From Fusobacteriia bacterium UBA1095 (lineage in GTDB: Bacteria; Fusobacteriota; Fusobacteriia; Bac17; UBA816): a stretch of DNA of 64,000 nt. Of this stretch, positions 8,246-62,066 are shown piece after piece (the first letter of the stretch is position 1; every line of letters begins with the position of its first letter). The position numbers were made by a program, and so were the translations under genes. The notes under the pieces are model-generated. The model was not told where the DNA came from. It ran no database searches and saw only the letters and a list, made by a program, of their open reading frames with translations. The stretch covers positions 7,859 to 71,858 of the forward strand of contig DCBY01000012.1 in the NCBI GenBank assembly GCA_002313635.1, given 5' to 3'.

Positions 8246-10120
8246 GTGCTATTCTTAATCTTAATGTCAAGCTGCATATCTAACAATTTTACAACAAGAA
8301 ATAAAGGAAAAAGAGAGGATATAAGTAAAGCTATACAGAATCCTACTTCTAAAGATAGTAAAATTATATTTGAAAATATAGATGCAAAAACAGCTTTACA
8401 GAAAAACGATGAAGGTCTACTGCCCATAGAAGAAGCAATAAAAGCAAGAAACATAGAAGCAACAAGCTTGCTGATGTCCGTGAAGGATTGCAGATACCCT
8501 ATCTATATATATGACAAAATATTGAACGAGGGGAGGGTAGATATTTTCAAATTAATTCCAGAAAAGCATTTAAGCTACAAGCTACTAAACAAACTAAAGA
8601 AAAGAGCAAACAAAGATTTAGAAAAGGAATTTTTAAAGAGAATAGAAGCAACAGAATTGGAAAGATTAATAATAGAGGGTAGAGCTCATGAGATAAGGAG
8701 TCAAAGTAAGGAGTGGGTAATAGCTAACTACAGAGACAAAAGAGGATCTATTGATAAAAGAAAAATAAATACAACAGAAATATTGTGCATATACGGAGAC
8801 AAATTAGCAAAAGAATTAATAGAAAAACTAAAAGATGATAAAAAAGACATAAAAGAATATTTGCTGTTTGTAGCATCAAAACTAGGGAATAGAAGCATGG
8901 TCAAGTGGCTACTAAAAAGCAATTTAGATATAAACAGTAGACCAGATAACAATGACGGGAGAACAGCATTAGCAGGGGCAGCTTTTAATGGACACAAAGA
9001 AGTTTGTGAGCTCTTGTTAGATAGAGGAGCAGAATTAAACACATCGGGTGAAGATGAATGGGAAGTATTAGTATTAGCAGCACAAGGCGGGCATAAGGAT
9101 GTATGTGAACTTTTGCTTAACAGAGGAGCAAAAGTAAATTCAATAAGAGGAAATAAAATCAGTGCCCTGATGTTAGCAGCACAGAACGGATACAAAGAAG
9201 TTTGTGAACTGCTTTTAAAGAATGGAGCAGAAGTTAATGCAATAAATGAAGGTGGATGGAGAGCATTGATGCTTGCAGCAAAGAATGGACACGAAAAAGT
9301 TTGTGAATTGCTGTTAAAGAATGGAGCAGAAGTCAATGCAATAAATGAAGATAGATGGAGAGCATTGATGCTTGCAGCACAAGGTGGATATATAAAGGTA
9401 TGTGAGTTATTATTGGATAAGGGAGCAGAGGTTGACTTATCAGATAAAGACGGTTGGAAAGCATTAATACTTGCAGCACAATACGGACATAAAGAAGTGT
9501 GTAAGCTATTGATAGAAAGAGGAGCAGAAGCCTATGCTGCAAAGAAGGGTGGGATGACAGCACTGGTTTTAGCAGCACAAAATGGGCATAAAGAGGTATG
9601 TGAGTTGTTGCTCGATAAGGGAGGGGAAGTTAACGCAGTAGAGAGAAGTAAAATTATGGCACTGATGTTTGCAGCAGAAAATGGACATAAGGAAATATGT
9701 GAACTATTGCTGGATAGGGAAACAGAACCCGATACAATAAGTGAAGATGGATGGAGAGCATTAATGTTCGCAGCAAAGAATGGACACAGATTAATTTGTG
9801 AATTACTACTGAATAAGGGAGCAAAAGTTGATGCAGTAGGAAGGAGCAGGGCTAGGGCATTAAATTTTGCTGTAGAAAGTGGGCATGATCAAGTTTACAG
9901 ATTGTTGTTGGAGATAGGAACAGAAGTTGACTTAATAAATGGAGATGGATGTGAGGCTTTGATGTTAGCAGCCCAAAATGGCCACAAAGAAGTTTGTGAA
10001 TTATTGCTGGAAAGAGGAGCAGAATCTGATGCAGTTGAGAAGAATAAGGCTAGAGCATTGGCATTGGCAGCACAAAATGGGCATAAAGAGGTATGCAAAT
10101 TGCTGTTATTAGATAAGTAA
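8246..10120 (+). CDS. Ankyrin-repeat lipoprotein, family A (624 aa), GTG start
   Basis: GTG start preceded by GGGGGAG. Lipobox LMSSC. The N-terminal ~230 aa are paralogous to the 910-aa protein. About 11 ANK repeats follow. Confidence 0.85.
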   Translation: MLFLILMSSCISNNFTTRNKGKREDISKAIQNPTSKDSKIIFENIDAKTALQKNDEGLLPIEEAIKARNIEATSLLMSVKDCRYPIYIYDKILNEGRVDIFKLIPEKHLSYKLLNKLKKRANKDLEKEFLKRIEATELERLIIEGRAHEIRSQSKEWVIANYRDKRGSIDKRKINTTEILCIYGDKLAKELIEKLKDDKKDIKEYLLFVASKLGNRSMVKWLLKSNLDINSRPDNNDGRTALAGAAFNGHKEVCELLLDRGAELNTSGEDEWEVLVLAAQGGHKDVCELLLNRGAKVNSIRGNKISALMLAAQNGYKEVCELLLKNGAEVNAINEGGWRALMLAAKNGHEKVCELLLKNGAEVNAINEDRWRALMLAAQGGYIKVCELLLDKGAEVDLSDKDGWKALILAAQYGHKEVCKLLIERGAEAYAAKKGGMTALVLAAQNGHKEVCELLLDKGGEVNAVERSKIMALMFAAENGHKEICELLLDRETEPDTISEDGWRALMFAAKNGHRLICELLLNKGAKVDAVGRSRARALNFAVESGHDQVYRLLLEIGTEVDLINGDGCEALMLAAQNGHKEVCELLLERGAESDAVEKNKARALALAAQNGHKEVCKLLLLDK

Positions 10121-28971: not shown

Positions 28972-30516
28972 TTACTTCTTGTACTCTTCAGGCTTTTTTC
29001 CATTGCTATCTTCTTTATCCCTACCAAAACCTAAGCTTATAGCCCTGTCTGCTAAATCATTTTGTCCATAGTAGTAAAGGGCATGTAACACGTATGTCCT
29101 CTCATCATTGTCTAATTCAACAATAGACGATTGGCAACCCAGGATTCTTGGAAAACTGAAGTTCCTCTTATCTTTTTTCTGCCTCTCTAGTATATCTAAG
29201 CACTTACCAAATACATCCCATTTTTGCATTTGAACCGATAAGCTCACAAGATTATGAACTACTTCAGCATCATTTCGAGCTCTTCCTGCCATATCAACTC
29301 GAACATCTTTATCCATTTTGTTAAGCACACTCATAACCTGCTTGTCTGCACCTTTACGCAACATTCTAACCAAAAATATTTCATCATAAGGCTCAGCTAT
29401 ATTTACACCATACTTTCTATGATCTTTGCCTTTCTTGTTCAGTTCATGGTCCACAAAATCCACAACTAAGTCAAATAAATTGTTGTCAACCGCTATGTGA
29501 AGTGGAGAGTAACCTCTGCTATTACCTCCTCCGTTCCTATCAGGAAGTGGATCATAAGGAATTGTAAGATTTTTCTCTGATAATTTCCTGAAAGCATACT
29601 CCCAAAATTCAGATTTACTCTGAAGCTTAGCTACATAATTTTCTTTACCCTCTTCCCTACTATTTTCATCCAATACTGAAAGTCCTGAATTACCAAAATT
29701 ATCAACATAAAAATCAAAAGCACACTTGAAAGACTCTATGCTATAACCCAGACAGTGAGCTACCAAAGTCACATCATTAATTTTTTTATATTGTTCTTTA
29801 GAATCTCCAATAGTGTTAAGTAGATATTTGAAAATTTCGGATGAGTTAGCGGCAGCATATAGCAGTGGGTGACTGTCTTCCCCTATAGCCCAATCAAACC
29901 CATCTTGGATAAGAAAATCTATCATCTTTCTATTTTCAATCTTTTCATCTATACAAAATTGAATTAAGTTTTTACCTTCACTTCTAGCATCTTGATATTT
30001 AAAAGGTATCTCTTTTAACAGATCTTCATAACCATTTTTCAATGCAAAAGTGAAAAGAGGCCAGGAATTGTATGAAGAGTACCCCTTGAACATCTCATCA
30101 TATTCAGAGAGGTCATATAGAACTTGTAATCTATTCTCTTCATCTTGTCCAGCTAATTTAGCTAGTACAAAATCTTTTACATCTGGCTTAAGAGAGGAGA
30201 TGACATCTTTAGGGATAGAGGTAGTATCAATAAAACTCCAAACTTCTCTTACGACAGATTCATCCGTATTATTACTTTGCAAAATAGAACAAATACGTTT
30301 ATTCACAAATTTCAAAGTCCCTTCCTTGTCTTCAGATAGCGCTAACTTAAAGGCTTTAACAAAGGCTTCAGGTCCTTCCTTCAGGGATTTATCTAAATCT
30401 ACAGATTCACTGGGTTCTTCAACATCATCTACTAATTGTACATCTTCAACCTCTTTTTTATTAGGAGAACCCTTAAATGAGCACTCACATAAAAAAAGTA
30501 ATAACAAAACAAACAT
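28972..30516 (-). CDS. Hypothetical secreted/lipoprotein (514 aa) with degenerate ankyrin-like segments
   Basis: N-terminal signal MFVLLLLFLCECSF. ANK-like segments GYSPLHIAVDNNLFDLV and HPLLYAAANSSEIFKYLL. The stop abuts the convergent gene. Confidence 0.55.
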   Translation of the reverse strand: MFVLLLLFLCECSFKGSPNKKEVEDVQLVDDVEEPSESVDLDKSLKEGPEAFVKAFKLALSEDKEGTLKFVNKRICSILQSNNTDESVVREVWSFIDTTSIPKDVISSLKPDVKDFVLAKLAGQDEENRLQVLYDLSEYDEMFKGYSSYNSWPLFTFALKNGYEDLLKEIPFKYQDARSEGKNLIQFCIDEKIENRKMIDFLIQDGFDWAIGEDSHPLLYAAANSSEIFKYLLNTIGDSKEQYKKINDVTLVAHCLGYSIESFKCAFDFYVDNFGNSGLSVLDENSREEGKENYVAKLQSKSEFWEYAFRKLSEKNLTIPYDPLPDRNGGGNSRGYSPLHIAVDNNLFDLVVDFVDHELNKKGKDHRKYGVNIAEPYDEIFLVRMLRKGADKQVMSVLNKMDKDVRVDMAGRARNDAEVVHNLVSLSVQMQKWDVFGKCLDILERQKKDKRNFSFPRILGCQSSIVELDNDERTYVLHALYYYGQNDLADRAISLGFGRDKEDSNGKKPEEYKK

Positions 30517-40886: not shown

Positions 40887-42353
40887 TTACTTAGACTCAC
40901 CTGAAATCTTTTTAAATTCCACATCAAGTCTAGAAACAGCGTAAATCCATATAAGAAGTGCTCCTCCTATTATAAACAGAAGGTAAGGTATAACAGCCTC
41001 TATCTTACCTCCAAACAGAGGCAGAAGGAACATAGACAGCAAAGAAGCACCTAAGCTCTTTCCTAACCTACCTCCAGCACCGTCAACAGCAGCTTTACCC
41101 TTAATCTTTGTCTCTTGATCTAAAGGAATATATACAGCTTCCTTTGTAGGATCAAATAGAGTATATTTAAAGGCTTTTATGAACACAACCTGCAACATTC
41201 CAACCATAACAGCCAAGAATAGTGAAGACACTCCAAATGTTGTCTCAAATATAGCCAAATCTCGTCCAAAAAGCATAAAAGTAAAGAAGATCGCACCCAA
41301 AATAGAAGCTATCAAAGGTGTCAAAAGCGCTGCAAGCTTCCAACTCTTTCTTATTATCCATGAGGATGCAAAAAGTATAAGTATTATAGAAGTTATACCT
41401 ATCAAGAAAACCTCTGCAGAGTATATGTTTGAAAGAGTTTGGAAGTCACCACCAGAAGCTTTTTGTAAAGCTTTAACCTGACTCTTCCAAACAGCCTCTA
41501 TAAGACTTATAACAAAACCGTAAGAAAACACAAGTACAGCTATCAATCCTAAATATTTTGATCTAGCCAAAAACATGAAAGATTCCACAAGCCCTAGTTT
41601 TGGCTTCTTTTTCTTGTCTTTCTTTTCTTCTATCTGATAGGCATCAGGATCAGCTGCAATTTTGTCAGTAAACCATTTGTATATAAACATAATAGCCGCA
41701 CCAGAGACTAAAACTATGTATACAAGGTATAACATTGTCTCTCTGCTACCAAACATTCTCAAGAATGCTGCTGAAAAAAGAAGAGCAACATTAGGGCCCA
41801 ATGCCAAGAAACTGTAAAATCTCTTAGATTGTGCAACACTAGTTATCTCATTTATAAATGTCCATATAGCAATAGACATGCCAAATGTTCCCCAAAGCTC
41901 AGCGTGTATGTAAAACAGTGAAAAGAACCAATATCTTATAGCCCCCCACAAACCAAATAAATTTGGTGCAACTGAAATAGCGTAATCAAAAAATGAGTGT
42001 AGAGCTAAGTAATTGCGAGCTGGATAAAGAACAAAGGCAAACAGGGCAAAGAAAGCCACAAAATAAGATATGACTATGTAGAATAGCCCGTGTCTACCAA
42101 ATACGTTACTCAAAGAGTTATACACCAAAGTATATATGATAACCATCGGAGTAACACCAAAAGTCTTTACATAGTAAAGAGTCTCAGCACCAGCGCTGTC
42201 CAAAATGAATATGTCCTTCATATTTCTTAGCATTGAATAATTCAAGCTAACTAAAAGGAAAAGAATAGTCAAAGGTAAAAATTTCTTTAACTCATATCCG
42301 TGTATAGGCCATATAACCGACCTAATAGGACCAAACTTTTTTTGTTCTTGCAT
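40887..42353 (-). CDS. tlc: Nucleotide transporter, ATP/ADP translocase family (NTT/Tlc)
   Basis: The N-terminus IRSVIWPIHGYELKKFLPLTILFLLVSLNYSMLRNMKD closely parallels rickettsial and chlamydial Tlc/Npt1. About 12 TM segments. 488 aa. Confidence 0.85.
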   Translation of the reverse strand: MQEQKKFGPIRSVIWPIHGYELKKFLPLTILFLLVSLNYSMLRNMKDIFILDSAGAETLYYVKTFGVTPMVIIYTLVYNSLSNVFGRHGLFYIVISYFVAFFALFAFVLYPARNYLALHSFFDYAISVAPNLFGLWGAIRYWFFSLFYIHAELWGTFGMSIAIWTFINEITSVAQSKRFYSFLALGPNVALLFSAAFLRMFGSRETMLYLVYIVLVSGAAIMFIYKWFTDKIAADPDAYQIEEKKDKKKKPKLGLVESFMFLARSKYLGLIAVLVFSYGFVISLIEAVWKSQVKALQKASGGDFQTLSNIYSAEVFLIGITSIILILFASSWIIRKSWKLAALLTPLIASILGAIFFTFMLFGRDLAIFETTFGVSSLFLAVMVGMLQVVFIKAFKYTLFDPTKEAVYIPLDQETKIKGKAAVDGAGGRLGKSLGASLLSMFLLPLFGGKIEAVIPYLLFIIGGALLIWIYAVSRLDVEFKKISGESK

Positions 42354-42459: not shown

Positions 42460-42546
42460 GCCGCGGTGGCGGAATGGTAGACGCACAGGACTTAAAATCC
42501 TGAGGGCTTTTTGCCCGTGCCGGTTCAAGTCCGGCTCGCGGTACCA
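42460..42546 (+). tRNA. tRNA-Leu (anticodon UAA), long variable arm, CCA encoded
   Basis: Cloverleaf folded by eye: acceptor GCCGCGG, anticodon loop cuUAAaa, T-arm GCCGGTTCAAGTCCGGC, ACCA end. Confidence 0.85.
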
Positions 42547-42555
42547 GAGTATAGG

Positions 42556-42632
<77 letters not shown>

Positions 42633-42660
42633 AGTGACACTCTGATCCAATTTTTATTGA

Positions 42661-42737
<77 letters not shown>

Positions 42738-42740
42738 AGA

Positions 42741-42817
42741 GGCGATGTAGCTCAGTTGGTAAGAGCGTGCGGTTCATACCCGCAAGGTCGGTGGTTCAAA
42801 TCCACTCATCGCTACCA
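42741..42817 (+). tRNA. tRNA with a CAU anticodon (elongator Met, or Ile2 if lysidinylated)
   Basis: GGCGATGTAGCTCAGTTGGTAAGAGC...uuCAUac...GGTTCAAATCC...CCA. It lacks the initiator features. Confidence 0.8.
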
Positions 42818-45837: not shown

Positions 45838-46392
45838 CTAGTTAAAAAGGTATCTTAAAGAAAACATTAAATGTGCATCATGAAGGCCGTCATCTATAAA
45901 AAGTCTGTCTAAAAACAGTGTTCCATGTATCTCAAAAGAGACGTTATCACTTATCATTTTTCTTATGCTTGCATTCACTCCCCATAGATAAGTCGCACCC
46001 AAAGTAATCAGGGTCTCATCCTTAAATTTGTATCCCACATATACATAGATAACAGGGATAACTAAAAGAAAAGTTTTTGGGAACAAGAATCGTCCAAAAA
46101 CAGGCTGAGACATAATTTGGCCTCCACTAAACATCTGATCATAATATGGAAATCCTAATTCAACAGAGAGATAGTAATTTTCTGGTATAAAGTCAAAAGC
46201 ATACTCTAAACCAAATCCTGCAAGTACACCCATTCCCTTCTCTGAATCATTTATTCCTAATTCCTCATTCACCATCTTTCTCCACTTTGCATGAACACCT
46301 GATATGCTTCTTAGAGATAGACCTCTCCAATCCGCAAAAGAGGAGATACTAAAGGCAGAAAATATAATAAAGGATAAAAATTTTTTATTCAT
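45838..46392 (-). CDS. Small putative outer-membrane beta-barrel protein (184 aa)
   Basis: N-terminal signal peptide, alternating amphipathic beta-like segments, C-terminal aromatic-rich LRYLFN. Confidence 0.35.
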   Translation of the reverse strand: MNKKFLSFIIFSAFSISSFADWRGLSLRSISGVHAKWRKMVNEELGINDSEKGMGVLAGFGLEYAFDFIPENYYLSVELGFPYYDQMFSGGQIMSQPVFGRFLFPKTFLLVIPVIYVYVGYKFKDETLITLGATYLWGVNASIRKMISDNVSFEIHGTLFLDRLFIDDGLHDAHLMFSLRYLFN

Positions 46393-46412
46393 AATATCTT
46401 AATTATACCATT

Positions 46413-47819
46413 TTATTTAATAAAAGCGAAGCGAAAATCAGGCCCTGACGCTCCACTAACTATTTTTACACCTTTAATTGAGTCCTTTATTAAATAAAAA
46501 GATTTGGGGAAAAATAGAGGAATAACAGGAAGAGATTGTAAAATTTCTTCCTCAGCTTTTGAGAGCAGATCTCTTTTTTCACCTGTACTATATGAAGAGT
46601 AAGCTTTTCTAACTAAAATATCAAAGTCATGACTAATAAATTTGAAATAATTATCTTTTGATCCTGAAACAAAAATAGATAAAAAATCAAAGGGTAAGGA
46701 TAGGTTATCAACAGCCCAAATAGATAGATAAAGATCAAAATCACCAGAAGCTAGTTTTCTATTTTTTACAAAGATCGGAAGAGTAACAATTTCAATATCT
46801 AGACCTATTTTTGAAAGAGATGATTTTAGGTATCTTGCAACTGTTAAACTAATAGTACCTCTAGAGCACAGAAGTCTGAGCTTTCTACTTTTTTGAACAC
46901 TTTCACCTTTTTTTTCCATATTTATACGATTATTAAATCCTTGATACTCTTTGGGGACAAAGGAATAGGCGGGCTGATACCCATACCCTATCAAATTACA
47001 TACCTCTTCTCTATCCACACTAGAAGATATTAGTTGCCTTAACTCTTGGGAAACAGTAGAGGTATTTACCCCTACAAAAAATGTTTTAAAATTCGTACTA
47101 TACTCTCTATAGTTTAAATCTTCTATCGGCAAAAGATTTAATACAACATCTAGCTCTCCATTTCTGAACATATTCACCGCCACAAAGCTATCTTTAACTG
47201 ATATAAACTCTATTTCATCTATCTGTGTTGCTTCATAAAATGGATTTTTCTTCAGCATTATACTATCTTCTGCTACACTATCTGGAATAAAAGGACCATT
47301 GTATTTACCATTAACAAAAGGTACAAAAAGCGGAAAAGAGAAGAGTGAGCCATAGACTAGGATAGGGTCTTCAACTTCATATTTTAAGATTATCGTTAAC
47401 TCTCTACCTTTTGTTCTAACCCCTACTCTGTCAAAGGGCACTTTGCCTTTAGAGTAGAGCTCTGCATTCTCTATCAAGAAATATTTTTCAGCAAAATTGG
47501 ACTCTTCTAATATCAGCTTAAGAGAATCAGCAAAATCTTTAGCTTCCACATTAGATCCGTCATTAAATTTACTGTCTATGTAGAATATTATCTTTCTACC
47601 CTCACACCTTATATGACTGGCAGCACACTTAACAAAATGGCCTTCTTCATCAATCCTCAGCAGAGGGTCATAGATACTGGAAAAAATTGAAGATGCTGAA
47701 GAGTTAAAAAATAAGGGGTTAATTCCTCCTAAATTTTTTACCCTAACCTTTATACTGTTCTTCGACAAAGAAACAAGAGATAGGGCACAAAATAGCGCAA
47801 AACGGCCTAATAGTTTCAT
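46413..47819 (-). CDS. Solute-binding protein, family 5 (OppA/DppA-like), orphan (no permease genes adjacent)
   Basis: Signal peptide. Length and conserved blocks resemble SBP_bac_5. 1-nt gap to the upstream histidine kinase gene. Confidence 0.5.
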   Translation of the reverse strand: MKLLGRFALFCALSLVSLSKNSIKVRVKNLGGINPLFFNSSASSIFSSIYDPLLRIDEEGHFVKCAASHIRCEGRKIIFYIDSKFNDGSNVEAKDFADSLKLILEESNFAEKYFLIENAELYSKGKVPFDRVGVRTKGRELTIILKYEVEDPILVYGSLFSFPLFVPFVNGKYNGPFIPDSVAEDSIMLKKNPFYEATQIDEIEFISVKDSFVAVNMFRNGELDVVLNLLPIEDLNYREYSTNFKTFFVGVNTSTVSQELRQLISSSVDREEVCNLIGYGYQPAYSFVPKEYQGFNNRINMEKKGESVQKSRKLRLLCSRGTISLTVARYLKSSLSKIGLDIEIVTLPIFVKNRKLASGDFDLYLSIWAVDNLSLPFDFLSIFVSGSKDNYFKFISHDFDILVRKAYSSYSTGEKRDLLSKAEEEILQSLPVIPLFFPKSFYLIKDSIKGVKIVSGASGPDFRFAFIK

Positions 47820-47820
47820 A

Positions 47821-50181
47821 TTACCCTTTGTAGACTATGTCAAAACTAAAAGAGACTTTAGTAAATAGGTTTGGAGAAGAGTTAATATTTATATCTCCTC
47901 CTAACTTGTTTATTATAGCCTTACATATCATCAAGCCTTGCCCAGAACTAAGCATTTTACCCTCAGTATAGAGCTTAAACAGATTACGTTTAGCCTCTTC
48001 ACTCATACCATAGCCATTATCTATTATAGTTATTAGCAACTTTCCATCTTCAATGATGAAGTCCATCTTTATTATCTTTTTTCTGTTCAACTTTGTCTTT
48101 TCAAGAGCTTCAATTGCATTCTTAAATATCATGTTAACTACATTTTTGATGGATTTTTTTGGACCAAACAATTCTGTATCAAGGGGCAAAAGGTAATCTT
48201 CTTCTAACCTTATATCTAGAAAGTGGCATAGCTTTCTTAAGCTAGACATATTATCTTTGATATAGGAGACATCAAAAACCACACTCTCTTCTTCTCCAAC
48301 CATGGATAGGCTCTCTTCTATCTGGTCCATAGATGATTCTAATGACTCTTCTATGCTATCTAGGTATTGAACTATGTCTTCTCTCTCATTCTTGTAGTAT
48401 GATCCATAAATATTTTTAAGCTGTGTTAGAGAGTCAGACAGAGAAAAAAGAGGTATTTTTATCTCATGAACACTATTCTTATGGAATAGCCCCATATTTT
48501 GATATATCTCTATAGCTTTCTCTTTCTCATTTAGAGCCTGCACATTTTTGAAATGCTCTATAACAAACGCAGCTTTACTAGCAAAATCTTTAACCAGGTC
48601 TAGCTCTATTCCCTCATAAAATTCATTTTCTTTACTTATCAAAATAACATAACCTAACATGTTGTCTTGTATGCTAATAGGAATGATAAGCGATGAATTA
48701 GCATTTTTGAAAAATTTAGACATTCCACTCTTGTTAAACATAGAGAAGTAATTCTTCTCTATCTCTTCTTTGTTAGCAATTATGAAGTTAAAAATATCTT
48801 CCTCTTTGTCCTGCAAACTAGGTATTGAGGTCAAAAGCACCATCCCTATATCATTTAAAATGAAGTAAGCTCTGTCATAGTATATATATGATTTAAGTGA
48901 CAGGAGGGCTTTAGAGAATATTTCATCTTTTCTCTCTGAAGTGCCAAGAGCAAACACGAATCTTTCTGAATTCTTATCAATAGCACTTTCAACTCTTGCA
49001 ACATGCATTCTATCCAAAATAAGGGCAAAAACAATTAAAACATCAGATGCTATATCGTAAGATCCAAAGAAGTGTGGAGATAGCCCTACTGTAAAAATAC
49101 CTAAAATCTGTTCCATAACAAAACGAGATATGGAAGATAAAATACCAAACATGTGAACAACAAAAAACAGAGTAGCATATCTGTACCTTATCTTGAACAA
49201 AATCATGAAAAAGAGCTGTGTAACAGCAAGGAAAACAAAGAAAGACAGGTAGTGAAAATAGTAAAAAATACTGTTTCCTGTAACTAACTTAAGCAGGGTT
49301 AAAAGGTTAAAGAAAGTTATTAAGATAAAGCTATTTCTGAAAAAGGAATCTATTTTTCTAGCTTTTATATAAAATCTTCTCCTTAAAAACTCAAGTGCAA
49401 ATTTGAAAAAAGAGTAGACTTGAAGTGTCTTCAATGAGTACCACAGAATAAGGAAATAAAAGAAGCTAGGAAAAATATTTGGATTAGTCCACAGCCATAA
49501 CAGAAGTAAGTTGATAAAGCTGTATATCCCAAAGTATAGGAAGTACACGTACTTAGTGTAGAAACCAACTATAAAAAGGAATATAAATGATAAAACAGAA
49601 AATAAAACTGTCAGCGTGTAGTAACTAGAGGAGTCATAAGAGAACTTCAAGTGTGTATATATATCAACAGCATATAGGTTAGTTTTTATATTGTGCCCTT
49701 GGGTAGGCAATTCAATTACAACTCTAACATTGGATTTAGGTCTTATCTTTATAAAATGACCTTTATCTAGCTTTTGAGACTTCTTTCTTTCAAAATCTTT
49801 CTTTGAATCCTCATTATTGTATCTTTTATCAAAAACGTCATCTATGTACACATAAAATACAAGGTCTGATCCAACTAACTTATTTTGAAACCAACCACCT
49901 AAGAATACTTCATTTTCTTCACTATCATTGAAAAATTCTGATATTATCCAATACTTTCTATTGGTTTTGCTGAAAAGATGTGAATTCCTCTCAAAATTCT
50001 TCCACTCTTTTCTTAGAGATAGAACTTCATCTAAAGAAAGGTCCCCATCTACATCTTCTATATAGTAGGAACTTTTCATAAGATCCATGAATCCAGATTT
50101 AAATCTTCCATCATTATCGGTCCTAATCGAATATGAGAAAGAATTAAGAAGAAATAATAAAATTGGAAAAAGTGCTTTCAT
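47821..50181 (-). CDS. Sensor histidine kinase with N-terminal periplasmic 7TMR-DISMED2-like domain, 7TM region, GAF-like region, HisKA and HATPase_c
   Basis: H-box HEIKIPL. N/G boxes NAIEA...DNGYGM...GQGLMICKAI. Seven closely spaced TM helices around aa 190-370 after a ~170-aa signal-anchored ectodomain. No response regulator gene nearby. Confidence 0.8.
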   Translation of the reverse strand: MKALFPILLFLLNSFSYSIRTDNDGRFKSGFMDLMKSSYYIEDVDGDLSLDEVLSLRKEWKNFERNSHLFSKTNRKYWIISEFFNDSEENEVFLGGWFQNKLVGSDLVFYVYIDDVFDKRYNNEDSKKDFERKKSQKLDKGHFIKIRPKSNVRVVIELPTQGHNIKTNLYAVDIYTHLKFSYDSSSYYTLTVLFSVLSFIFLFIVGFYTKYVYFLYFGIYSFINLLLLWLWTNPNIFPSFFYFLILWYSLKTLQVYSFFKFALEFLRRRFYIKARKIDSFFRNSFILITFFNLLTLLKLVTGNSIFYYFHYLSFFVFLAVTQLFFMILFKIRYRYATLFFVVHMFGILSSISRFVMEQILGIFTVGLSPHFFGSYDIASDVLIVFALILDRMHVARVESAIDKNSERFVFALGTSERKDEIFSKALLSLKSYIYYDRAYFILNDIGMVLLTSIPSLQDKEEDIFNFIIANKEEIEKNYFSMFNKSGMSKFFKNANSSLIIPISIQDNMLGYVILISKENEFYEGIELDLVKDFASKAAFVIEHFKNVQALNEKEKAIEIYQNMGLFHKNSVHEIKIPLFSLSDSLTQLKNIYGSYYKNEREDIVQYLDSIEESLESSMDQIEESLSMVGEEESVVFDVSYIKDNMSSLRKLCHFLDIRLEEDYLLPLDTELFGPKKSIKNVVNMIFKNAIEALEKTKLNRKKIIKMDFIIEDGKLLITIIDNGYGMSEEAKRNLFKLYTEGKMLSSGQGLMICKAIINKLGGDININSSPNLFTKVSFSFDIVYKG

Positions 50182-50269
50182 GAAATTAGGATACCGAATT
50201 TACAAATCTATTTCAAGACAAAAATAAAATAATTTTAAAATTTATCTTTTTTAGTCCAATTTTTATTTT

Positions 50270-50344
50270 CTTTTGCATTTATTCAGCATATTTGGTAGAT
50301 TGTTTTCGCGTTGAAGGCTGCTTTGCAATTCTAGTTAAGGGGGG
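50270..50344 (+). repeat. Promoter+leader unit, copy 1: TTGCAT, 17-nt spacer, TAGATT, then a conserved leader ending in AAGGGGGG (no ATG follows)
   Basis: Roughly 80% identical by eye to the copy at 50856-50930. Followed ~330 nt later by a terminator hairpin at 50671-50701. Confidence 0.5.
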
Positions 50345-50670
50345 ATTTTTTACTAATATCTATTCTTCACAATTTTTATCACTGAGAAAAACTGCGAGCA
50401 ATTCCATTTACAAACCTACTTATTACAGCCTACAATAACATTATCTTTCATTTAGTTTTCAAGTAAGGAAAAATCACCAAATCATTAGGCGAATCTTTTT
50501 CCCAAAAATATCATAAAATTTACGGAAGTATATTCTAACATATTCTCATTTTCACGGCAACGTTTTCGTGTGAAATGAAAAAAATACATTCTTCACGTAA
50601 AAAATAGTGAAATTTCTTCTTTGTCCCCATAGCGGCTTCTTTTAGGAAGCATCTCTTTTACCAAGTATCC

Positions 50671-50701
50671 ATTAACACTACAGCCATAGTGTTAATTTTT
50701 G
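50671..50701 (+). terminator. Rho-independent terminator (attaacact-loop-agtgttaat + TTTTT)
   Basis: 9-bp inverted repeat followed by a T-run. Would terminate a ~400-nt non-coding transcript starting at the copy-1 promoter. Confidence 0.45.
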
Positions 50702-50855
50702 CTAATATGCCTAAACAAAAATACAGAGTAAAATTAAAAAAATATTTTCATAAAATTAAAGTGCGCAAATTATAAGATAATCTTTGAAAAATAAGGGATC
50801 AGAAAACAGAATAATTATTTTAAAGAAATAATTTTTTGAAAATAACAATATTTTT

Positions 50856-50930
50856 CTTTGCATTTATTTAATATATTTGATAGATTAATTGTGCGTTATA
50901 GGTTGCTTTGCAATTCTAAACTAAAGGAGG
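50856..50930 (+). repeat. Promoter+leader unit, copy 2: TTGCAT, 17-nt spacer, TAGATT, then the conserved leader ending in AAGGAGG
   Basis: Paralogous to 50270-50344. Immediately followed by a 20-codon sORF. Confidence 0.5.
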
Positions 50931-50938
50931 AGTTTATT

Positions 50939-51001
50939 ATGAACATTCCAGTTTTCAAGCCTTTACTAAAAGGACCATTTAGCGTTGATATCGCTTGGTA
51001 G
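50939..51001 (+). CDS. Candidate 20-aa micro-ORF MNIPVFKPLLKGPFSVDIAW (possible leader peptide or small protein)
   Basis: Perfect AAGGAGG RBS 8 nt upstream of the ATG. A terminator lies 30 nt downstream. Sits in an otherwise non-coding 900-bp region. Confidence 0.35.
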   Translation: MNIPVFKPLLKGPFSVDIAW

Positions 51002-51031
51002 TATTAAGGCGAATTTTAGTTAATATAAAAA

Positions 51032-51063
51032 AGAGGGAGGTTTTTGACCTCTCTCTTTTTTTG
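51032..51063. terminator. Bidirectional rho-independent terminator (agagggagg-tttttga-cctctctct flanked by an A-run and a T-run)
   Basis: Could serve the plus-strand sORF transcript and the minus-strand 622-aa gene that ends at 51094. Confidence 0.6.
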
Positions 51064-51093
51064 TCTTGTATTAATATTTATATGCAACAAGGA

Positions 51094-52962
51094 CTAATAG
51101 AAATTGGATTCTAGTTTCAGCTCGAATCTATTTTCCTTTTCAATATTAAATTTCATACCACTTTTAGGAAAGGAAGTTAAGAAATTCTCCGTAGTAATCA
51201 CATCTCTATTTCCACTTAATCTTCCTAAATTAAATTCAAAGAAAGAGTTAGCAGCAATTAAGTACCTAATATTGAAAGCAATCCCGAATAGCGATTCTGA
51301 TGACTCATAACCATAGACAAAATTAAAGCTAGAAGAGAGCCTTTCTGTAAATAAATTATACTTAAATAGAGAACAATGCAGGTGAAAAACAATATCTCCA
51401 TCATATAAAATTTTCCCCTTTTTCTGAATATCCATCCCTAGTTCAACAAAATCACTATCATCAAAAACAAAATATTGAACAAGCTTTCCTATACCAAAAT
51501 TTGAATAAAGTACAGACAAAGTTATCCCCTTATCTTCCATCATCTCTAATCCTAGTACGGACGCTTTTATATAATTAAAGTCAAGAAAGCCTACTTCATA
51601 ATCAAAAAATGAACCAAAAATAGATATATGGTCACTAAACTTAACCAAACTTTTGAAGTTAAAGTCGTACAAGCTACCATACCCTTCTACTTTGTAAGAG
51701 TCTTGCATTATACCAAAGCTCAAATACAAATTGGCAAGCATAATTCGAAAATGTGAACTTAGAGAAATTAAGTATTTACTATCTTTTAAGTTATTAGTAT
51801 AGGATATCTTAGGAGAAACATACTTCCCTTCAAACATAGAGGCTTCTATAAACGACGCAGCACTCTTTTTCTTATACTTAATGAAAGAGTTGGCAAACAC
51901 CTCTTTCTCATTGCTCTTACTATCATTGAAATACTGTCCAGCCTCAAATATTCCTGCTCTGATCCGGAAAATATCCAAATCTACATCGGTGTAAAGAAGT
52001 ATGGCATCGGTAGGTGCTAGTCTTAAAATAGGTACAGTAGACATATTACCTGAAGCTCCATAGGTGGCATTTTCCATGCTATTTACAGAGGTAAGGTAGC
52101 TCAATCTAACAAAACTTAAGTTGGGAAAAGAAGTTTTAAAGAAAATACTTGAATCCAAGGAGAGGATCCCAGAACTAGATAACCTATCTTCTAAAGATAT
52201 TTCAGTTCTTGAACTAGCTACAATCTCATCAAAATAGTTTATGTTGAAGTTGAAATCTACACCATTATCCAAGCTAAATTTGTTGTCTAATGTAAGTAAG
52301 ACATCGCTTTTAAATACGTTCTGTTCTGAATCGTCTGATCCTAACAAAAATACAATATTTGATCTATAAATTTTATGTGCAAAAGAGTAATTTATCAAAA
52401 AGCCTTCTCTAGGTTTAGCAACAGGAGAGTAGTAAGAAACTAAAAAATCAGATGAAGATGGAAGTTGTGCATCACCTGAGAAAAAAGAGATACTAGCTCT
52501 GTTAATTTTAAATAAAAGATTAAACCTGTAAAGGGGTAAATTTGTCATAGACACTTCTAAGTTAGAGACCATATTTTCTAAACATAGATTGGCCCTTAAT
52601 CCCACTAAGGGCTTTGAAGAACCAAGAGTAGCACACGGAAAGTATGCTAAATACTCATTACTGTTTTCATTCGAAAGAAAAGAGCCTTTAAAATTTATAT
52701 TATTGAAGATGGACAATCTCAGTTGTTCTTCCTTTTCACTAACTGCTTCTAAATTCTTTACCTGCTCTAATTCCTCATATATATTAGATATTTTATATTC
52801 ATGTTCTGAGGAGAGTGATGCAACTTCTGACAAAACACTCTTAATAGGCGCAACATCAGGATTTTCCAACAAAATCTCTTTGTCTTTAATTGGCACACTA
52901 GCCTTACTATCATCCTCACTTCTCTCACAAGATACAAAAAGAATCAAAAATAAAAGTATCAT
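51094..52962 (-). CDS. Hypothetical lipoprotein / putative outer-membrane protein (622 aa)
   Basis: Lipobox LFVSCE. Beta-rich composition. C-terminal ...LKLESNFY with a terminal aromatic residue. Lies directly downstream of gyrA. Confidence 0.55.
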   Translation of the reverse strand: MILLFLILFVSCERSEDDSKASVPIKDKEILLENPDVAPIKSVLSEVASLSSEHEYKISNIYEELEQVKNLEAVSEKEEQLRLSIFNNINFKGSFLSNENSNEYLAYFPCATLGSSKPLVGLRANLCLENMVSNLEVSMTNLPLYRFNLLFKINRASISFFSGDAQLPSSSDFLVSYYSPVAKPREGFLINYSFAHKIYRSNIVFLLGSDDSEQNVFKSDVLLTLDNKFSLDNGVDFNFNINYFDEIVASSRTEISLEDRLSSSGILSLDSSIFFKTSFPNLSFVRLSYLTSVNSMENATYGASGNMSTVPILRLAPTDAILLYTDVDLDIFRIRAGIFEAGQYFNDSKSNEKEVFANSFIKYKKKSAASFIEASMFEGKYVSPKISYTNNLKDSKYLISLSSHFRIMLANLYLSFGIMQDSYKVEGYGSLYDFNFKSLVKFSDHISIFGSFFDYEVGFLDFNYIKASVLGLEMMEDKGITLSVLYSNFGIGKLVQYFVFDDSDFVELGMDIQKKGKILYDGDIVFHLHCSLFKYNLFTERLSSSFNFVYGYESSESLFGIAFNIRYLIAANSFFEFNLGRLSGNRDVITTENFLTSFPKSGMKFNIEKENRFELKLESNFY

Positions 52963-59062: not shown

Positions 59063-59495
59063 TCTTCCTCCTAAATTTTAAGAAGATTATATCATCTAAT
59101 TCTTAATAAATTTAGTGTTTTTTAACAAATTACCTCTCAAACTTTGTTTTTGTTAACTTATCTTCATTTTCCACTTTTTAACATTGTTTTCAACATATTG
59201 TTTTTATTCACTTTAACTTTTTTCAAAAATTTTAAAGCTAGAATTTATCTTCCTTTCTAAGTACATTACTTTATGTTGAAAATTGTGTTGAAAACTTTTT
59301 ATTAAAATTCTGTTTTTTAGTTTTCTCCATCTTTTCATATAATTTTAAACGTTATTTTTAACATACTTTTTAACAATTGAAATTCAGTATTAATAGAGTA
59401 TAGCGTACTGTTTCAACAAATTAACATCCCCTAATACTATAACTACTTAACATTTTAGTAGTTAAGAGTCTCTTAATAGGGATTGTTTAAAACTT
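59063..59495. promoter_or_regulatory. Candidate oriC / divergent dnaA-rpmH control region with four copies of a DnaA-box-like 9-mer TTTTCAACA/TGTTGAAAA
   Basis: Very AT-rich 433-bp spacer. The 9-mers lie at about 59187-59195 and 59410-59418 (forward) and 59274-59282 and 59287-59295 (inverted). Additional TTTTCCACT and TTATCTTCA variants are present. Confidence 0.5.
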
Positions 59496-59501
59496 TTGTA
59501 T

Positions 59502-59530
59502 TTGACAGTATCCGCTAAATTTTGTAGAAT
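59502..59530 (+). promoter_or_regulatory. Consensus sigma70 promoter for rpmH-rnpA-yidC: TTGACA, 17-nt spacer, TAGAAT
   Basis: tttgacagtatccgctaaattttgtagaat lies ~50 nt upstream of the rpmH TTG start. Confidence 0.7.
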
Positions 59531-59579
59531 TTCTAGAGTAGAAAAACCAAAAAATAAAATTGAGAGATTAGGTGAGAAA

Positions 59580-59711
59580 TTGAAACGAACTTATCAACCC
59601 AACAAATCGAAGAGAAAGAAAAATCACGGATTTAGAGCTAGAACTAGAAAGAGTTCGGGCAGTGTTTTGAAAAGCAGAAGAGCCAAAGGTAGAAAAGTTT
59701 TGTCAGCTTGA
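59580..59711 (+). CDS. rpmH: 50S ribosomal protein L34 (TTG start)
   Basis: (M)[42 protein letters not shown] is canonical L34. The longer ORF in the supplied track is a 5' over-extension. RBS AGGTGA. Confidence 0.9.
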
Positions 59712-60013
59712 ATACACTGAAGACTTCTAAAGACTTTTCAAATGTGTTTGATGGAGGTAAAAAATTTATTACAGCGACCTCTATATTCTTTTATTTAAAA
59801 ACTTCTTCAGGTGACGGGAGGTTAGGTATATCCGTGAGTAGAAGAGTGGGAAATGCTGTTCAGAGGAATAAGATCAAGAGAATAGTTAGAAATATCTTTA
59901 GATTCTTTTCCCCGAAAGGTTTTGATGTTGTAGTCTTGTGTAGAAGAGGCGAGGTATTTAACATGTCTACTTTTGCCAGAGACTTTCTAAAATTTTGGAA
60001 GAAGGTGTACTAA
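59708..60013 (+). CDS. rnpA: RNase P protein component
   Basis: Position immediately after rpmH with overlap. Basic 101-aa protein with an RnpA-like motif ([19 protein letters not shown]). Confidence 0.75.
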
Positions 60014-60014
60014 A

Positions 60015-60629
60015 ATGTTCAAAAGTTTTTTTAATTTTGTTTTTCAATCTTTTTTAAATCTATTTATCTTTATAGATGGCTATGTTGGGAATAAGTCTAT
60101 AACTATAATTATAGTAGCCATACTGCTGAGGTTAATTCTTTTTCCTTTCAGTGCTAACTATACTAAATTTACGACTTCAGTTAAAAAATTAGATCCTGAA
60201 ATAAAGAGAATTAGAGAACAAGAAAAAGATTTGGCTAAAGCTGAAATGAAAATTTCTGAAATTTACAAAAGAGAGGGAGTTAGTCCTTTTTCTGGACTTC
60301 TGTATATCGCACTTCAAATATTTTTGATGATTTCCTCTATCTCCGTAATTAGAAGTCAAAGCTTTGTTGGTGCTGATGATCTCCTTTTTGGATTTAAATT
60401 AGTTGAGAGAGATCCATACTACATACTACCTATCATCTCTACGTTGGTATTTTTTGTAAATATGCCTAGGTCAAATCCATCAAAGGGAATTTCTGAATAT
60501 GCCCTAGTTGGAATTATGTTTTTTGTAAATATGAGATGGTCAATTGCCTTGTTGTTATTTTTTACAACTACTTCTGTTGTATCATTAGCTCAAGATTTTT
60601 TAATAAAGAGATTTTCTTTAAACTCTTAA
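60015..60629 (+). CDS. yidC: Membrane protein insertase YidC/Oxa1 family, minimal form (204 aa)
   Basis: The core IIIVAILLRLILFPFS...KKLDPEIKRIREQ...EMKISEIYKREGVSPFSGLLYIALQIFLMISS matches the conserved YidC TM2-loop-TM3 core. There is no large periplasmic domain. Confidence 0.7.
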   Translation: MFKSFFNFVFQSFLNLFIFIDGYVGNKSITIIIVAILLRLILFPFSANYTKFTTSVKKLDPEIKRIREQEKDLAKAEMKISEIYKREGVSPFSGLLYIALQIFLMISSISVIRSQSFVGADDLLFGFKLVERDPYYILPIISTLVFFVNMPRSNPSKGISEYALVGIMFFVNMRWSIALLLFFTTTSVVSLAQDFLIKRFSLNS

Positions 60630-61991: not shown

Positions 61992-62066
61992 TGGGCTGTA
62001 GCCAAGCGGTAAGGCACGGGACTTTGACTCCCGCATGCGATGGTTCGAATCCATCCAGCCCAGCCA
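61992..62066 (+). tRNA. tRNA-Gln (UUG), CCA encoded
   Basis: Acceptor TGGGCTG/CAGCCCA. Anticodon loop cuUUGac. T-loop GGTTCGAATCC. Confidence 0.8.

What the first reader, a model, noticed from the sequence alone, without database searches (positions are those of the whole stretch)
50182..51093. 900-bp non-coding gap with two paralogous promoter+leader units, one leading into a 20-codon sORF and a bidirectional terminator
Two ~75-nt segments (50270-50344 and 50856-50930) are about 80% identical by eye. Each contains a good sigma70-like promoter (TTGCAT-N17-TAGATT) followed by a conserved leader ending in a strong Shine-Dalgarno. Copy 2 runs straight into MNIPVFKPLLKGPFSVDIAW and a terminator. 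Copy 1 has no ATG after its SD but is followed ~330 nt later by a separate terminator hairpin. These look like two related small transcription units, either sRNAs with or without a small peptide, or the decayed 5' end of a duplicated gene. Neither relates to the flanking kinase or lipoprotein genes, which are on the opposite strand.
Basis: seen in the sequence. Interest (0 to 1): 0.55.

Follow-up and report, generated by a model that had tools for sequence, protein, structure and literature searches.

The report
Duplicated tiny-peptide gene beside sensor kinase
The gap holds two related mini transcription units: one encodes an unannotated 20-residue peptide whose counterparts sit beside the same sensor-kinase operon in five related lineages of uncultured, mostly marine bacteria, and the other is a copy that has lost its start codon.

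Summary
A 70-nt direct repeat (50264-50333 and 50849-50918) is 81% identical, far beyond chance. Each copy carries TTGCAT-N17-TAGATT with an extended -10 (TGn), a leader and a Shine-Dalgarno. Copy 2 runs into a 20-codon sORF (50939-51001) and a strong bidirectional terminator. Copy 1 has ACT where the ATG should be.

I found kinase orthologues in seven further lineages. In all five whose kinase-upstream sequence is readable, the same spot holds an extended -10 promoter, a strong SD, a 7-20-codon sORF and a terminator, all antisense to the kinase. A sixth contig ends at the promoter's -10. The seventh, which shows no other shared neighbours on its incomplete contig, has only an 85-nt gap that I read by eye but did not scan. 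One further non-syntenic homologue lacks the unit.

The peptide sequences are hypervariable, yet they look coding:
- Pro, Gly and Trp are enriched only in the sORF frame.
- GC at the third codon position is lowest.
- A Gly-Pro pair recurs with third-position changes.

There are no Rfam, Pfam or NCBIfam matches. My best reading is a real, fast-evolving micro-peptide gene linked to an orphan kinase and solute-binding-protein operon, tandemly duplicated here. The kinase-proximal copy is now non-coding. That the peptide signals to this sensor is inferred only.

The parts
50188..50216 (-). Predicted promoter of the histidine-kinase operon (-35 TTGAAA, 17 nt, -10 TATCCT), back to back with unit 1. 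The -10 ends 6 nt before the kinase ATG, and there is no SD.
   Evidence: Promoter scan and table of upstream sequences. The same region is conserved in L003 and between L022 and L024.
50273..50301 (+). Unit 1 promoter: -35 TTGCAT (50273-78), 17-nt spacer, TGn (50293-95), -10 TAGATT (50296-301).
   Evidence: It matches copy 2 at 25 of 29 positions.
50308..50351 (+). Unit 1 leader (GCGTTGAAGGCTGCTTTGCAATTCTA...) ending in the SD-like AAGGGGGG (50337-44). The transcription start is inferred, not mapped.
   Evidence: 26 of 36 identical to copy 2. No significant RNA structure.
50352..50438 (+). Decayed sORF of unit 1. ACT replaces ATG, followed by TNIYSSQFLSLRKTASNSIYKPTYYSLQ and a stop. Probably not translated.
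   Evidence: The first 18 nt match copy 2 at only 7 of 18, whereas copy 2 matches relative L003 at 12 of 18.
50634..50696 (+). Two hairpins (50634-51 and 50671-96, each followed by a U-rich stretch). They are candidate 3' ends for the unit 1 transcript and are weak.
   Evidence: combined z=-2.6.
50858..50886 (+). Unit 2 promoter: -35 TTGCAT (50858-63), 17-nt spacer, TGn (50878-80), -10 TAGATT (50881-86).
   Evidence: The -35 region TTTCTTTGC also appears at the end of L016.
50893..50938 (+). Unit 2 leader (GCGTTATAGGTTGCTTTGCAATTCTAAAC) with SD AGGAGG at 50925-30.
   Evidence: The core AGGTTGCTTTG is shared with L003.
50939..51001 (+). sORF of 20 codons plus stop: MNIPVFKPLLKGPFSVDIAW.
   Evidence: Four of the 6 AGGAGG-ATG pairs in the window mark the start of a long ORF and a fifth lies just inside one.
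51027..51067 (.). Bidirectional intrinsic terminator with a 15-16-bp stem, an A-run before and a T-run after. It is shared with the convergent lipoprotein gene (stop at 51094).
   Evidence: (I7).
45838..50181 (-). Linked operon: 7TM sensor histidine kinase (47821-50181), SBP_bac_5 solute-binding protein (46413-47819), and a 184-aa protein with a signal-peptide-like N terminus (read by eye) and unknown function (45838-46392).
   Evidence: Pfam, precomputed Pfam hits for the orthologues, synteny, sequences.

Best explanation
The gap contains a tandem pair of paralogous mini-genes.

Unit 2 runs from about 50890 to 51065 and would give a transcript of roughly 175 nt. It is a self-contained gene with an extended -10 sigma-70-type promoter, a 45-nt leader, a consensus SD, a 20-codon ORF and an intrinsic terminator. 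It is most likely translated into the peptide MNIPVFKPLLKGPFSVDIAW.

This unit belongs to a micro-peptide locus that is fixed in position but hypervariable in sequence. The locus lies divergently upstream of an orphan sensor operon (7TM histidine kinase, family-5 solute-binding protein, and in some lineages a small 184-186-aa protein with a signal-peptide-like N terminus) in a sparsely sampled clade. The source bacterium is marine, AT-rich and, judging from its ankyrin-repeat proteins and a TLC ATP/ADP translocase, probably host-associated. These gene-content features were checked only in the window organism, apart from a few precomputed ankyrin hits next to the locus in three relatives.

Unit 1 occupies the ancestral, kinase-proximal position. 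It keeps the promoter, leader and SD but has ACT for ATG, and its coding part has decayed. It is now either a non-coding transcript or a dead copy. Related lineages also carry sORF-less sister units.

Proposed function, which is inferred and not shown: the peptide or a processed fragment acts on the adjacent sensor, either as a ligand of the solute-binding protein and kinase pair or as a regulator of it. Rapid sequence turnover would then mirror what is seen in pheromone-receptor pairs.
For: The repeat is highly significant and sharply bounded to the promoter, leader and SD.

A full HMMER search returned full-length kinase orthologues, and their contigs were fetched. In all five lineages with readable kinase-upstream sequence there is a TGnTAnnnT promoter, a strong SD, a tiny ORF and a terminator, antisense to the kinase and 81-165 nt from its ATG. 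The peptides are:
- L003: MNNPIFVGYFPISADGPTYF
- L018: MNFFIEKGPGTRINWM
- L017: MKLGPAP
- L022: MFIAPHVVSGWW
- L024: MTINIPDGLETY

Between L022 and L024, whose kinases are 39% identical, only the two promoters, the two SDs and the ATG stay aligned.

Coding signature pooled over the six sORFs:
- Pro is 13.6% against 2.3% in window proteins (binomial P=2.6e-6), and Trp is 4.9% against 0.6%.
- Pro+Gly+Trp make up 28% in the sORF frame against 8% and 4% in the other two frames.
- There are 0 in-frame stops against 4 and 7 in the other frames.
- GC by codon position is 0.43, 0.43 and 0.25.
- Each sORF is more GC-rich than the rest of its gap.
- Gly-Pro occurs in 4 of 6 peptides, with differences only at third positions (GGA CCA, GGT CCA, GGA CCT).

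Four of the 6 AGGAGG-ATG pairs in the window mark the start of a long ORF and a fifth lies just inside one. The window sORF and the L003 sORF are both exactly 20 codons.

Sister units without an sORF, and promoter-plus-leader paralogy, also occur in L018 and L017.
Against: - There is no expression or proteomic evidence, and the start sites are inferred.
- Peptide sequences are barely alignable. Window versus L003 gives P of about 0.04, and 0.25 once the initial Met-Asn is removed. L017 has only 7 codons. 'Conserved peptide' therefore means position, signals and composition, not sequence.
- The peptides have no signal peptide or double-glycine leader. No exporter, processing enzyme, response regulator or ABC permease lies nearby. 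The ligand idea rests on adjacency alone.
- The most conserved part in the window/L003 subclade is the untranslated leader, which would also fit an RNA-level function.
- Only six lineages are available. Population data add nothing because the gap is identical in all assemblies checked.
- One kinase homologue outside the synteny (L019) lacks the unit in the scan. For a second (L025, 85-nt gap, read by eye but not scanned) I saw no unit.
Confidence: 0.62

Rival explanations
1. The units are paralogous trans-acting small RNAs, like OmrA/OmrB or PrrF1/PrrF2. The conserved 5' leader would be the functional base-pairing seed. The sORF in unit 2 would be incidental, or the RNA would be dual-function.
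For: Conservation between the two copies, and with L003, is strongest in the promoter and the 5' leader (AGGYTGCTTTGMAAT) and vanishes after the start position. Unit 1, and sister units in L017 and L018, have no ORF yet keep a promoter and, in L017 and L018, a nearby terminator. Tandem sRNA paralogues that share a promoter and 5' end are a known pattern (my own knowledge).
Against: A strong SD and an ATG at correct spacing are kept in all five relatives' kinase-proximal units and in window unit 2, while the leader sequence itself is not conserved beyond the closest relatives. The compositional bias and GC periodicity are specific to the sORF frame. The window leaders show no significant structure. 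There is no Rfam hit. No target complementarity was identified.
Confidence: 0.2
2. The sORF is a cis-acting sensor ORF, that is a leader or arrest peptide rich in Pro, Gly and Trp. Its translation would control read-through of the terminator and so produce antisense transcription into the convergent lipoprotein or solute-binding-protein gene. Alternatively, divergent transcription would modulate the kinase promoter.
For: Pro-rich and Trp-containing leader peptides are classic sensors: L022 ends in SGWW and resembles TrpL, which ends in KGWW, and MgtL is Pro-rich (my own knowledge). What is conserved is the expression signals rather than the peptide sequence. A small hairpin overlaps the last codons in the window (50990-51013).
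Against: No gene lies downstream in the sense orientation in any lineage. The terminators are strong, bidirectional and not obviously paired with an anti-terminator. ORF length and the position of Pro and Trp vary freely.
Confidence: 0.08
3. The whole feature is non-functional debris. A local duplication of a promoter-containing segment would be decaying neutrally, and the tiny ORFs in relatives would be chance.
For: Unit 1 has lost its start codon. Upstream flank similarity, including a TTTCATRAAATTA that echoes the kinase start, hints at a segmental duplication. The middle 400 nt has no conserved or coding signal.
Against: The architecture recurs at the same position in the window and in all five lineages with readable kinase-upstream sequence, whose kinases have diverged to 39-54% identity where measured. 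Frame-specific composition has P=2.6e-6 for Pro. The contrast in unit 1 between a well-kept promoter and leader and a decayed ORF argues for selection or gene conversion rather than uniform decay.
Confidence: 0.07

Closest known systems
Short pheromone genes encoded divergently next to their receptor (shp/rgg and comS/comR in streptococci, papR/plcR in Bacillus; RRNPP systems)
   Same: An unannotated ORF of about 7-24 codons in its own tiny transcription unit directly beside, and often divergent from, the receptor gene. The peptide is hypervariable and rich in aromatic and Pro residues, with position conserved and sequence not. An Opp-type (family-5) binding protein is involved. This comparison rests on my own knowledge.
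   Different: Here the neighbour is a membrane histidine kinase, not a cytoplasmic TPR regulator. The binding protein has no adjacent permease or ATPase. No exporter or processing protease is linked. The organism is labelled Fusobacteriota, which would make it diderm, but I did not test that. There is no sequence similarity to these peptides.
agrD/agrC and comC/comD peptide-plus-histidine-kinase quorum-sensing modules
   Same: A self-encoded small peptide next to a multi-pass membrane histidine kinase, with rapid co-diversification (pherotypes).
   Different: There is no AgrB-like peptidase, no double-glycine leader or ComAB exporter, and no LytTR response regulator in the locus. The peptide gene is divergent rather than in the operon. 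The kinase appears to be of the 7TMR-DISM type, on weak and partial Pfam hits to different orthologues.
Small-protein modulators of sensor kinases (MgrB/PhoQ, SafA/PhoQ)
   Same: A tiny unannotated gene functionally tied to a sensor kinase.
   Different: Those are 47-65-aa membrane-inserted proteins and are not adjacent to the kinase gene. These peptides are 7-20 aa, Pro-rich, and have no transmembrane segment.
Tandem paralogous sRNAs (OmrA/OmrB, PrrF1/PrrF2, AbcR1/2) and dual-function sRNAs (SgrS/SgrT, RNAIII/hld)
   Same: Two adjacent units share a promoter and 5' end while the rest diverges. One unit has a small ORF and the other does not.
   Different: There is no Rfam match, no identified target and no significant structure. 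The coding signature of the sORF is stronger than the RNA conservation across the clade.
Leader or arrest peptides (TrpL, MgtL, SecM, TnaC)
   Same: Very short ORFs enriched in Pro, Gly and Trp with strong translation signals. The peptide sequence is loosely conserved.
   Different: There is no downstream gene to regulate, and a strong terminator follows directly.

Membership tests
Any Rfam RNA family (sRNA, leader, riboswitch) | Covariance-model score at or above the family gathering threshold | tested here: not met
   The only hits at gathering score in the window and in L003, L017, L018, L022 and L024 are tRNAs. In the permissive search of 50100-51150 every hit is far below threshold and most sit on the terminator hairpin.
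Known small-peptide or RiPP-precursor protein families (Pfam, NCBIfam) | Profile-HMM match of the peptide | tested here: not met
   No family at E<=10 for the window peptide, the L003 peptide or the decayed copy-1 ORF.
RiPP biosynthetic locus | A tailoring enzyme (radical SAM, YcaO, lanthipeptide synthetase, peptidase or exporter) next to the precursor gene | tested here: not met
   The neighbours are gyrA, a lipoprotein, the kinase, SBP_bac_5, a 184-aa protein with a signal-peptide-like N terminus, AhpC, EIIA-CBS and CitMHS. The relatives show the same set.
RRNPP peptide-receptor system (shp/rgg, comS/comR, papR/plcR) | An adjacent cytoplasmic TPR/HTH receptor gene | tested here: not met
   No such gene lies within 10 kb on either side in the window or in relatives. 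The adjacent gene is a membrane histidine kinase.
RRNPP peptide-receptor system | Peptide exported, processed and re-imported by an Opp permease | not testable with these tools
   An SBP_bac_5 protein is present, but no permease or ATPase genes are adjacent. Export and processing need experiments.
Agr-type or Com-type peptide-kinase quorum sensing | A dedicated processing or export gene (AgrB, or ComAB with a GG-leader) and a cognate response regulator in the locus | tested here: not met
   No such Pfam domain was found in the 33 of about 45 long ORFs of the window that I scanned, nor in the precomputed hits for 8 more. The peptides lack a GG motif.
Type I toxin-antitoxin | A hydrophobic transmembrane toxin peptide with an overlapping antisense RNA | tested here: not met
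   The peptides are Pro- and Gly-rich with no transmembrane stretch. The only antisense promoter-like site, at 50958-50931, is at the chance level (10 found against 8.3 expected) and by eye has no counterpart in L003.
Transcription-attenuation leader peptide | A regulated gene downstream in the same orientation, with alternative terminator and anti-terminator hairpins | tested here: not met
   The sORF is followed by a terminator and then a convergent gene in the window, L017, L018, L022 and L024; in L003 the contig ends 30 nt after the terminator. No alternative pairing was seen.
Independent small protein-coding gene | Promoter, SD at functional spacing, start codon, open frame and terminator, with a coding signature across orthologues | tested here: met
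   frame-specific Pro/Gly/Trp enrichment, lowest GC at the third codon position, and 6 of 6 lineages including the window. Translation itself is not shown.
Pseudogene remnant of a larger gene | Residual protein-domain similarity in the gap | tested here: not met
   Six-frame translation of 50350-50860 gave no Pfam family at E<=1. The gap shows no similarity to the flanking genes beyond a marginal echo of the kinase start.

The most novel reading that the evidence does not exclude
The hypervariable Pro/Gly/aromatic micro-peptides are self-made signals sensed through the adjacent solute-binding protein and its 7TM histidine kinase. That would be a peptide autoinducer circuit of a new architecture, with an orphan kinase, a periplasmic binding protein and no RRNPP or Agr parts, in a bacterium that is probably host-associated (ankyrin-repeat proteins and a TLC transporter) and presumed diderm from its NCBI Fusobacteriota label. 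The start-less sister units would add an RNA-level layer.
Probability: 0.15. Interest if true: 0.8.

Novelty: new member of a known kind. Interest (0 to 1): 0.5.

Why it matters
Genes of 7-20 codons are invisible to standard annotation; none was called in any of the assemblies examined. Here a micro-peptide gene is retained next to the same orphan sensor operon in six lineages, while its sequence turns over almost completely. Cognate peptide-receptor pairs show the same pattern.

If the peptide does talk to the kinase and binding-protein sensor, it would extend self-encoded peptide signalling to an uncultured, probably host-associated lineage of presumed diderm bacteria, with an architecture unlike the known Gram-positive systems. 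It would also assign a ligand class to a 7TMR-DISM-type kinase.

Even without that, the locus is a clean example of birth, duplication and loss of coding capacity in mini-genes.

Tried and rejected
- Rfam at gathering threshold and a permissive Rfam search: only tRNAs and sub-threshold terminator look-alikes.
- Pfam and NCBIfam on the peptides, and Pfam on the six-frame translation of the middle of the gap: nothing.
- Word-index protein searches with the lipoprotein, the kinase and a kinase C-terminal profile: only the same species plus one relative.
- Two genome-contig scans and one metagenome-contig scan with kinase profiles: only unrelated kinases at 26-34% identity, so the lineage was not detected among the GTDB representative genomes.
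- A viral-contig scan for the leader-plus-start pattern: 0 hits.
- Population variation: the gap is identical in three assemblies that cover all of it and in two more over the part fetched, so it is uninformative.
- A conserved 5' hairpin as the meaning of the leader: significant in the L018 units, marginal in L017, and not in the window, L003, L022 or L024.
- Long-range pairing of the 5' and 3' ends, and an RNAalifold consensus: weak and inconsistent.
- Tandem duplication carrying the kinase 5' end or the lipoprotein 3' end: flank similarity is marginal on one side and absent on the other.
- A leader motif regulon elsewhere in the window: no more matches than chance.
- Two usable literature searches found no description of such a module or of this organism.
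- Type I toxin, RiPP precursor and attenuator were each considered and rejected. The reasons are in the membership test.
Full report
**What is in the window**

The 912-nt gap (50182-51093) lies between two genes on the minus strand. One is a 786-aa sensor histidine kinase (47821-50181). The other is a 622-aa protein with a lipoprotein signal (51094-52962), which follows gyrA.

The repeat finder reports one long direct repeat, 50264-50333 and 50849-50918. It is 70 nt long and 81% identical. With a 2-nt indel the similarity continues through the Shine-Dalgarno to the start-codon position, at 77% over 93-95 nt.

The core scores z=23.5 against shuffles. The upstream flanks are only marginally similar (z=2.2). 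Everything after the start position is unrelated (z=0.5). A profile of the unit finds no third copy in the 64 kb.

Both copies read TTGCAT-N17-TAGATT with TGn immediately before the -10, which makes an extended -10 promoter. Copy 2 has AGGAGG 8 nt before an ATG (50939), then 20 codons (MNIPVFKPLLKGPFSVDIAW, stop at 50999-51001). It ends at a 15-16-bp bidirectional terminator at 51027-61 (-22.9 kcal/mol, z=-6.5).

Copy 1 has AAGGGGGG and then ACT where the ATG should be. Its first 18 'coding' nucleotides match copy 2 at only 7 of 18, whereas its promoter matches at 25 of 29 and its leader at 26 of 36. The one qualification is that the hairpins downstream of copy 1 are weak as terminators.

**Source organism**

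The flanking proteins are found in many Tara Oceans and other marine assemblies and in an NCBI metagenome-assembled genome labelled 'Fusobacteria bacterium'. The window runs dnaA-dciA-gyrB-gyrA-lipoprotein-[gap]-kinase-SBP_bac_5. It also carries at least six ankyrin-repeat proteins and a TLC ATP/ADP translocase, which points to a host-associated lifestyle. The gap is identical in three other assemblies that cover all of it and in two more over the part fetched.

**Finding relatives**

Word-index protein searches and the scans of genome and metagenome collections found almost nothing. One kinase at 53-54% identity turned up (P0016, contig L003).

Its 284 nt of upstream sequence, read on the strand opposite the kinase, contains the following:
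- the same promoter, TTGTAC-N17-TATATT with TGn;
- the same leader core, AGGTTGCTTTGAAAT;
- an SD;
- a 20-codon ORF, MNNPIFVGYFPISADGPTYF;
- a terminator.

An exhaustive HMMER search with the two kinases then returned a series of full-length orthologues, and their contigs could be fetched.

**The unit is tied to the kinase**

Three lineages (L017, L018, L022) show the window's gyrA-lipoprotein-kinase order. L024 matches L022, although gyrA lies outside the fetched stretch, and L016 shares the downstream genes. L018, L022, L024 and L016 have the solute-binding protein right after the kinase, and L003 has an unannotated partial gene in that place.

In each lineage where sequence upstream of the kinase exists, the strand opposite the kinase carries a TGnTAnnnT promoter, a strong SD, a tiny ORF and a terminator. 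The unit starts 81-165 nt from the kinase ATG.

| Locus | Peptide | Codons |
|---|---|---|
| window unit 2 | MNIPVFKPLLKGPFSVDIAW | 20 |
| L003 | MNNPIFVGYFPISADGPTYF | 20 |
| L018 | MNFFIEKGPGTRINWM | 16 |
| L017 | MKLGPAP | 7 |
| L022 | MFIAPHVVSGWW | 12 |
| L024 | MTINIPDGLETY | 12 |

L016's contig ends at the -10, but it shows the TTTCTTTGC -35 region seen in the window. One non-syntenic kinase homologue (L019) lacks the unit in my scan. I saw none in the 85-nt gap of another homologue with no other shared neighbours on its contig (L025), which I did not scan.

Between L022 and L024, whose kinases are 39% identical, the alignable islands are exactly the kinase SD, the kinase -10, the unit's -10, the unit's SD and the ATG.

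**Coding or not**

The peptide sequences hardly align. Window versus L003 gives P of about 0.04, driven by MNxP[VI]F. Pooled, however, the six ORFs behave like coding sequence:
- Pro is 13.6% against 2.3% in the window's proteins and 1.8% in translated intergenic DNA (P=2.6e-6).
- Trp is 4.9% against 0.6%.
- Pro+Gly+Trp make up 28% in the ORF frame but 8% and 4% in the other two frames.
- There are no in-frame stops, against 4 and 7 in the other frames.
- GC by codon position is 0.43, 0.43 and 0.25.
- Each ORF is more GC-rich than its surrounding gap.

A Gly-Pro pair occurs in four of the six peptides, with differences only at third codon positions. The genome uses SD sequences widely, and of the 6 AGGAGG-ATG pairs in the window 4 mark the start of a long ORF and a fifth lies just inside one. 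I conclude that unit 2 most likely is a translated mini-gene. Translation itself has not been shown.

**Unit 1 and sister units**

Unit 1 sits at the ancestral, kinase-proximal position, 112 nt from the kinase ATG. That spacing is comparable with the single units of relatives. It has lost the start codon and the reading frame content while keeping the promoter and leader.

Related gaps also contain extra units without an ORF. L018 has at least four promoter-terminator mini-units, with promoter-plus-leader paralogy at 75% and a second internal repeat at 89%. L017 has two units.

Duplication, followed by loss of coding capacity in one copy, thus appears to recur at this locus. I cannot tell whether unit 1 still makes a useful RNA, whether it is kept similar by gene conversion, or whether it is simply a young pseudogene.

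The leader has no significant secondary structure in the window. The apparent 5' hairpin is significant only in L018 and marginal in L017.

**Mechanism**

Shown here:
- the architecture of the unit;
- its linkage to the kinase operon;
- the coding signature;
- the absence of any known family.

Inferred: the peptide works with the adjacent sensor. The operon encodes a 7TM kinase, a family-5 (peptide-type) solute-binding protein with no transporter genes beside it, and in some lineages a small 184-186-aa protein with a signal-peptide-like N terminus. Precomputed Pfam hits to 7TMR-DISMED2 (unflagged for P0019, weak for P0016 and P0022), to 7TMR-DISM_7TM (weak) and to GAF (weak) were reported for different orthologues. 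A self-encoded, fast-evolving peptide next to such a sensor recalls shp/rgg, comS/comR and agrD/agrC.

None of the defining parts of those systems is present, and no export route is evident. I put the signalling model at about 0.15 and treat it as the novel case, not as the finding.

Rival readings are listed with their evidence:
- tandem sRNAs with a conserved 5' seed;
- a sensor ORF that controls antisense read-through;
- neutral debris.

**Verdict**

This is a real, previously unannotated mini-gene pair. It belongs to a clade-wide, kinase-linked micro-peptide locus with no similarity to known RNA or peptide families. It is a new member of the broad class of small-ORF and small-RNA genes. 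Its interest is moderate and would rise sharply if the peptide-sensor link were demonstrated.

Noticed in passing
window 50182-50216 (minus strand); compare L003:230-287, L022:3970-4003, L024:2970-3003: The kinase gene in the window has no Shine-Dalgarno, and its predicted -10 (TATCCT, 50193-50188) ends 6 nt before the ATG, so the mRNA may be leaderless. Relatives keep a 20-30-nt leader with an SD (AAGGA or GGAGAA). The window species seems to have lost about 15 nt here.
   Followed up: partly
window 13-1368, 1504-4236, 6278-7849, 8246-10120, 13214-14794, 28972-30516; 40887-42353: At least six ankyrin-repeat proteins and a TLC ATP/ADP translocase lie in a 64-kb stretch of about 34% GC. This suggests a host-associated, energy-parasitic lifestyle for a metagenome-assembled genome labelled 'Fusobacteria bacterium' at NCBI. 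The lineage was not detected among the GTDB representative genomes searched.
   Followed up: partly
window about 59063-60014 (between dnaA 57725-59062 and yidC 60015-60629): GC skew changes sign here, from negative to positive, next to dnaA-dciA-gyrB-gyrA. This is likely the replication origin. A simple TTATCCACA search with up to 1 mismatch shows no DnaA-box cluster in the gap.
   Followed up: partly
L018:2542-4000 (minus strand): A 1459-nt gap holds at least four extended -10 promoters, each followed by a strong 5' hairpin, with five terminator-like hairpins across the gap. Only the kinase-proximal unit has an sORF. Internal repeats cover the promoter plus leader (75%) and a 27-nt 3' element (89%). 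It looks like a small array of mini transcription units.
   Followed up: partly
window 45838-46392 (minus strand); L016:4041-4601: A 184-186-aa protein with a signal-peptide-like N terminus (read by eye), a C-terminal ...YLFN or ...YIFN and no Pfam family follows the solute-binding protein gene in two lineages. It may be a small outer-membrane or periplasmic partner of the sensor operon.
   Followed up: no
L022:436-6334 and L024:1-5400: In two lineages a second SBP_bac_5 gene sits between the lipoprotein-like gene and the sORF unit, so the kinase is flanked by two binding-protein genes.
   Followed up: no
window 42460-42814 and 61992-62063: There is a cluster of four tRNA genes between the TLC transporter and CitMHS genes, and a single tRNA after mnmE.
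   Followed up: no
window 50717-50760: Upstream of unit 2, the sequence ATATTTTCATAAAATTA echoes the kinase start region GTGCTTTCATGAAATTA (50170-50186). This may be a relic of a duplication that included the first kinase codons, but the similarity is only marginally significant (23 of 500 shuffles).
   Followed up: yes
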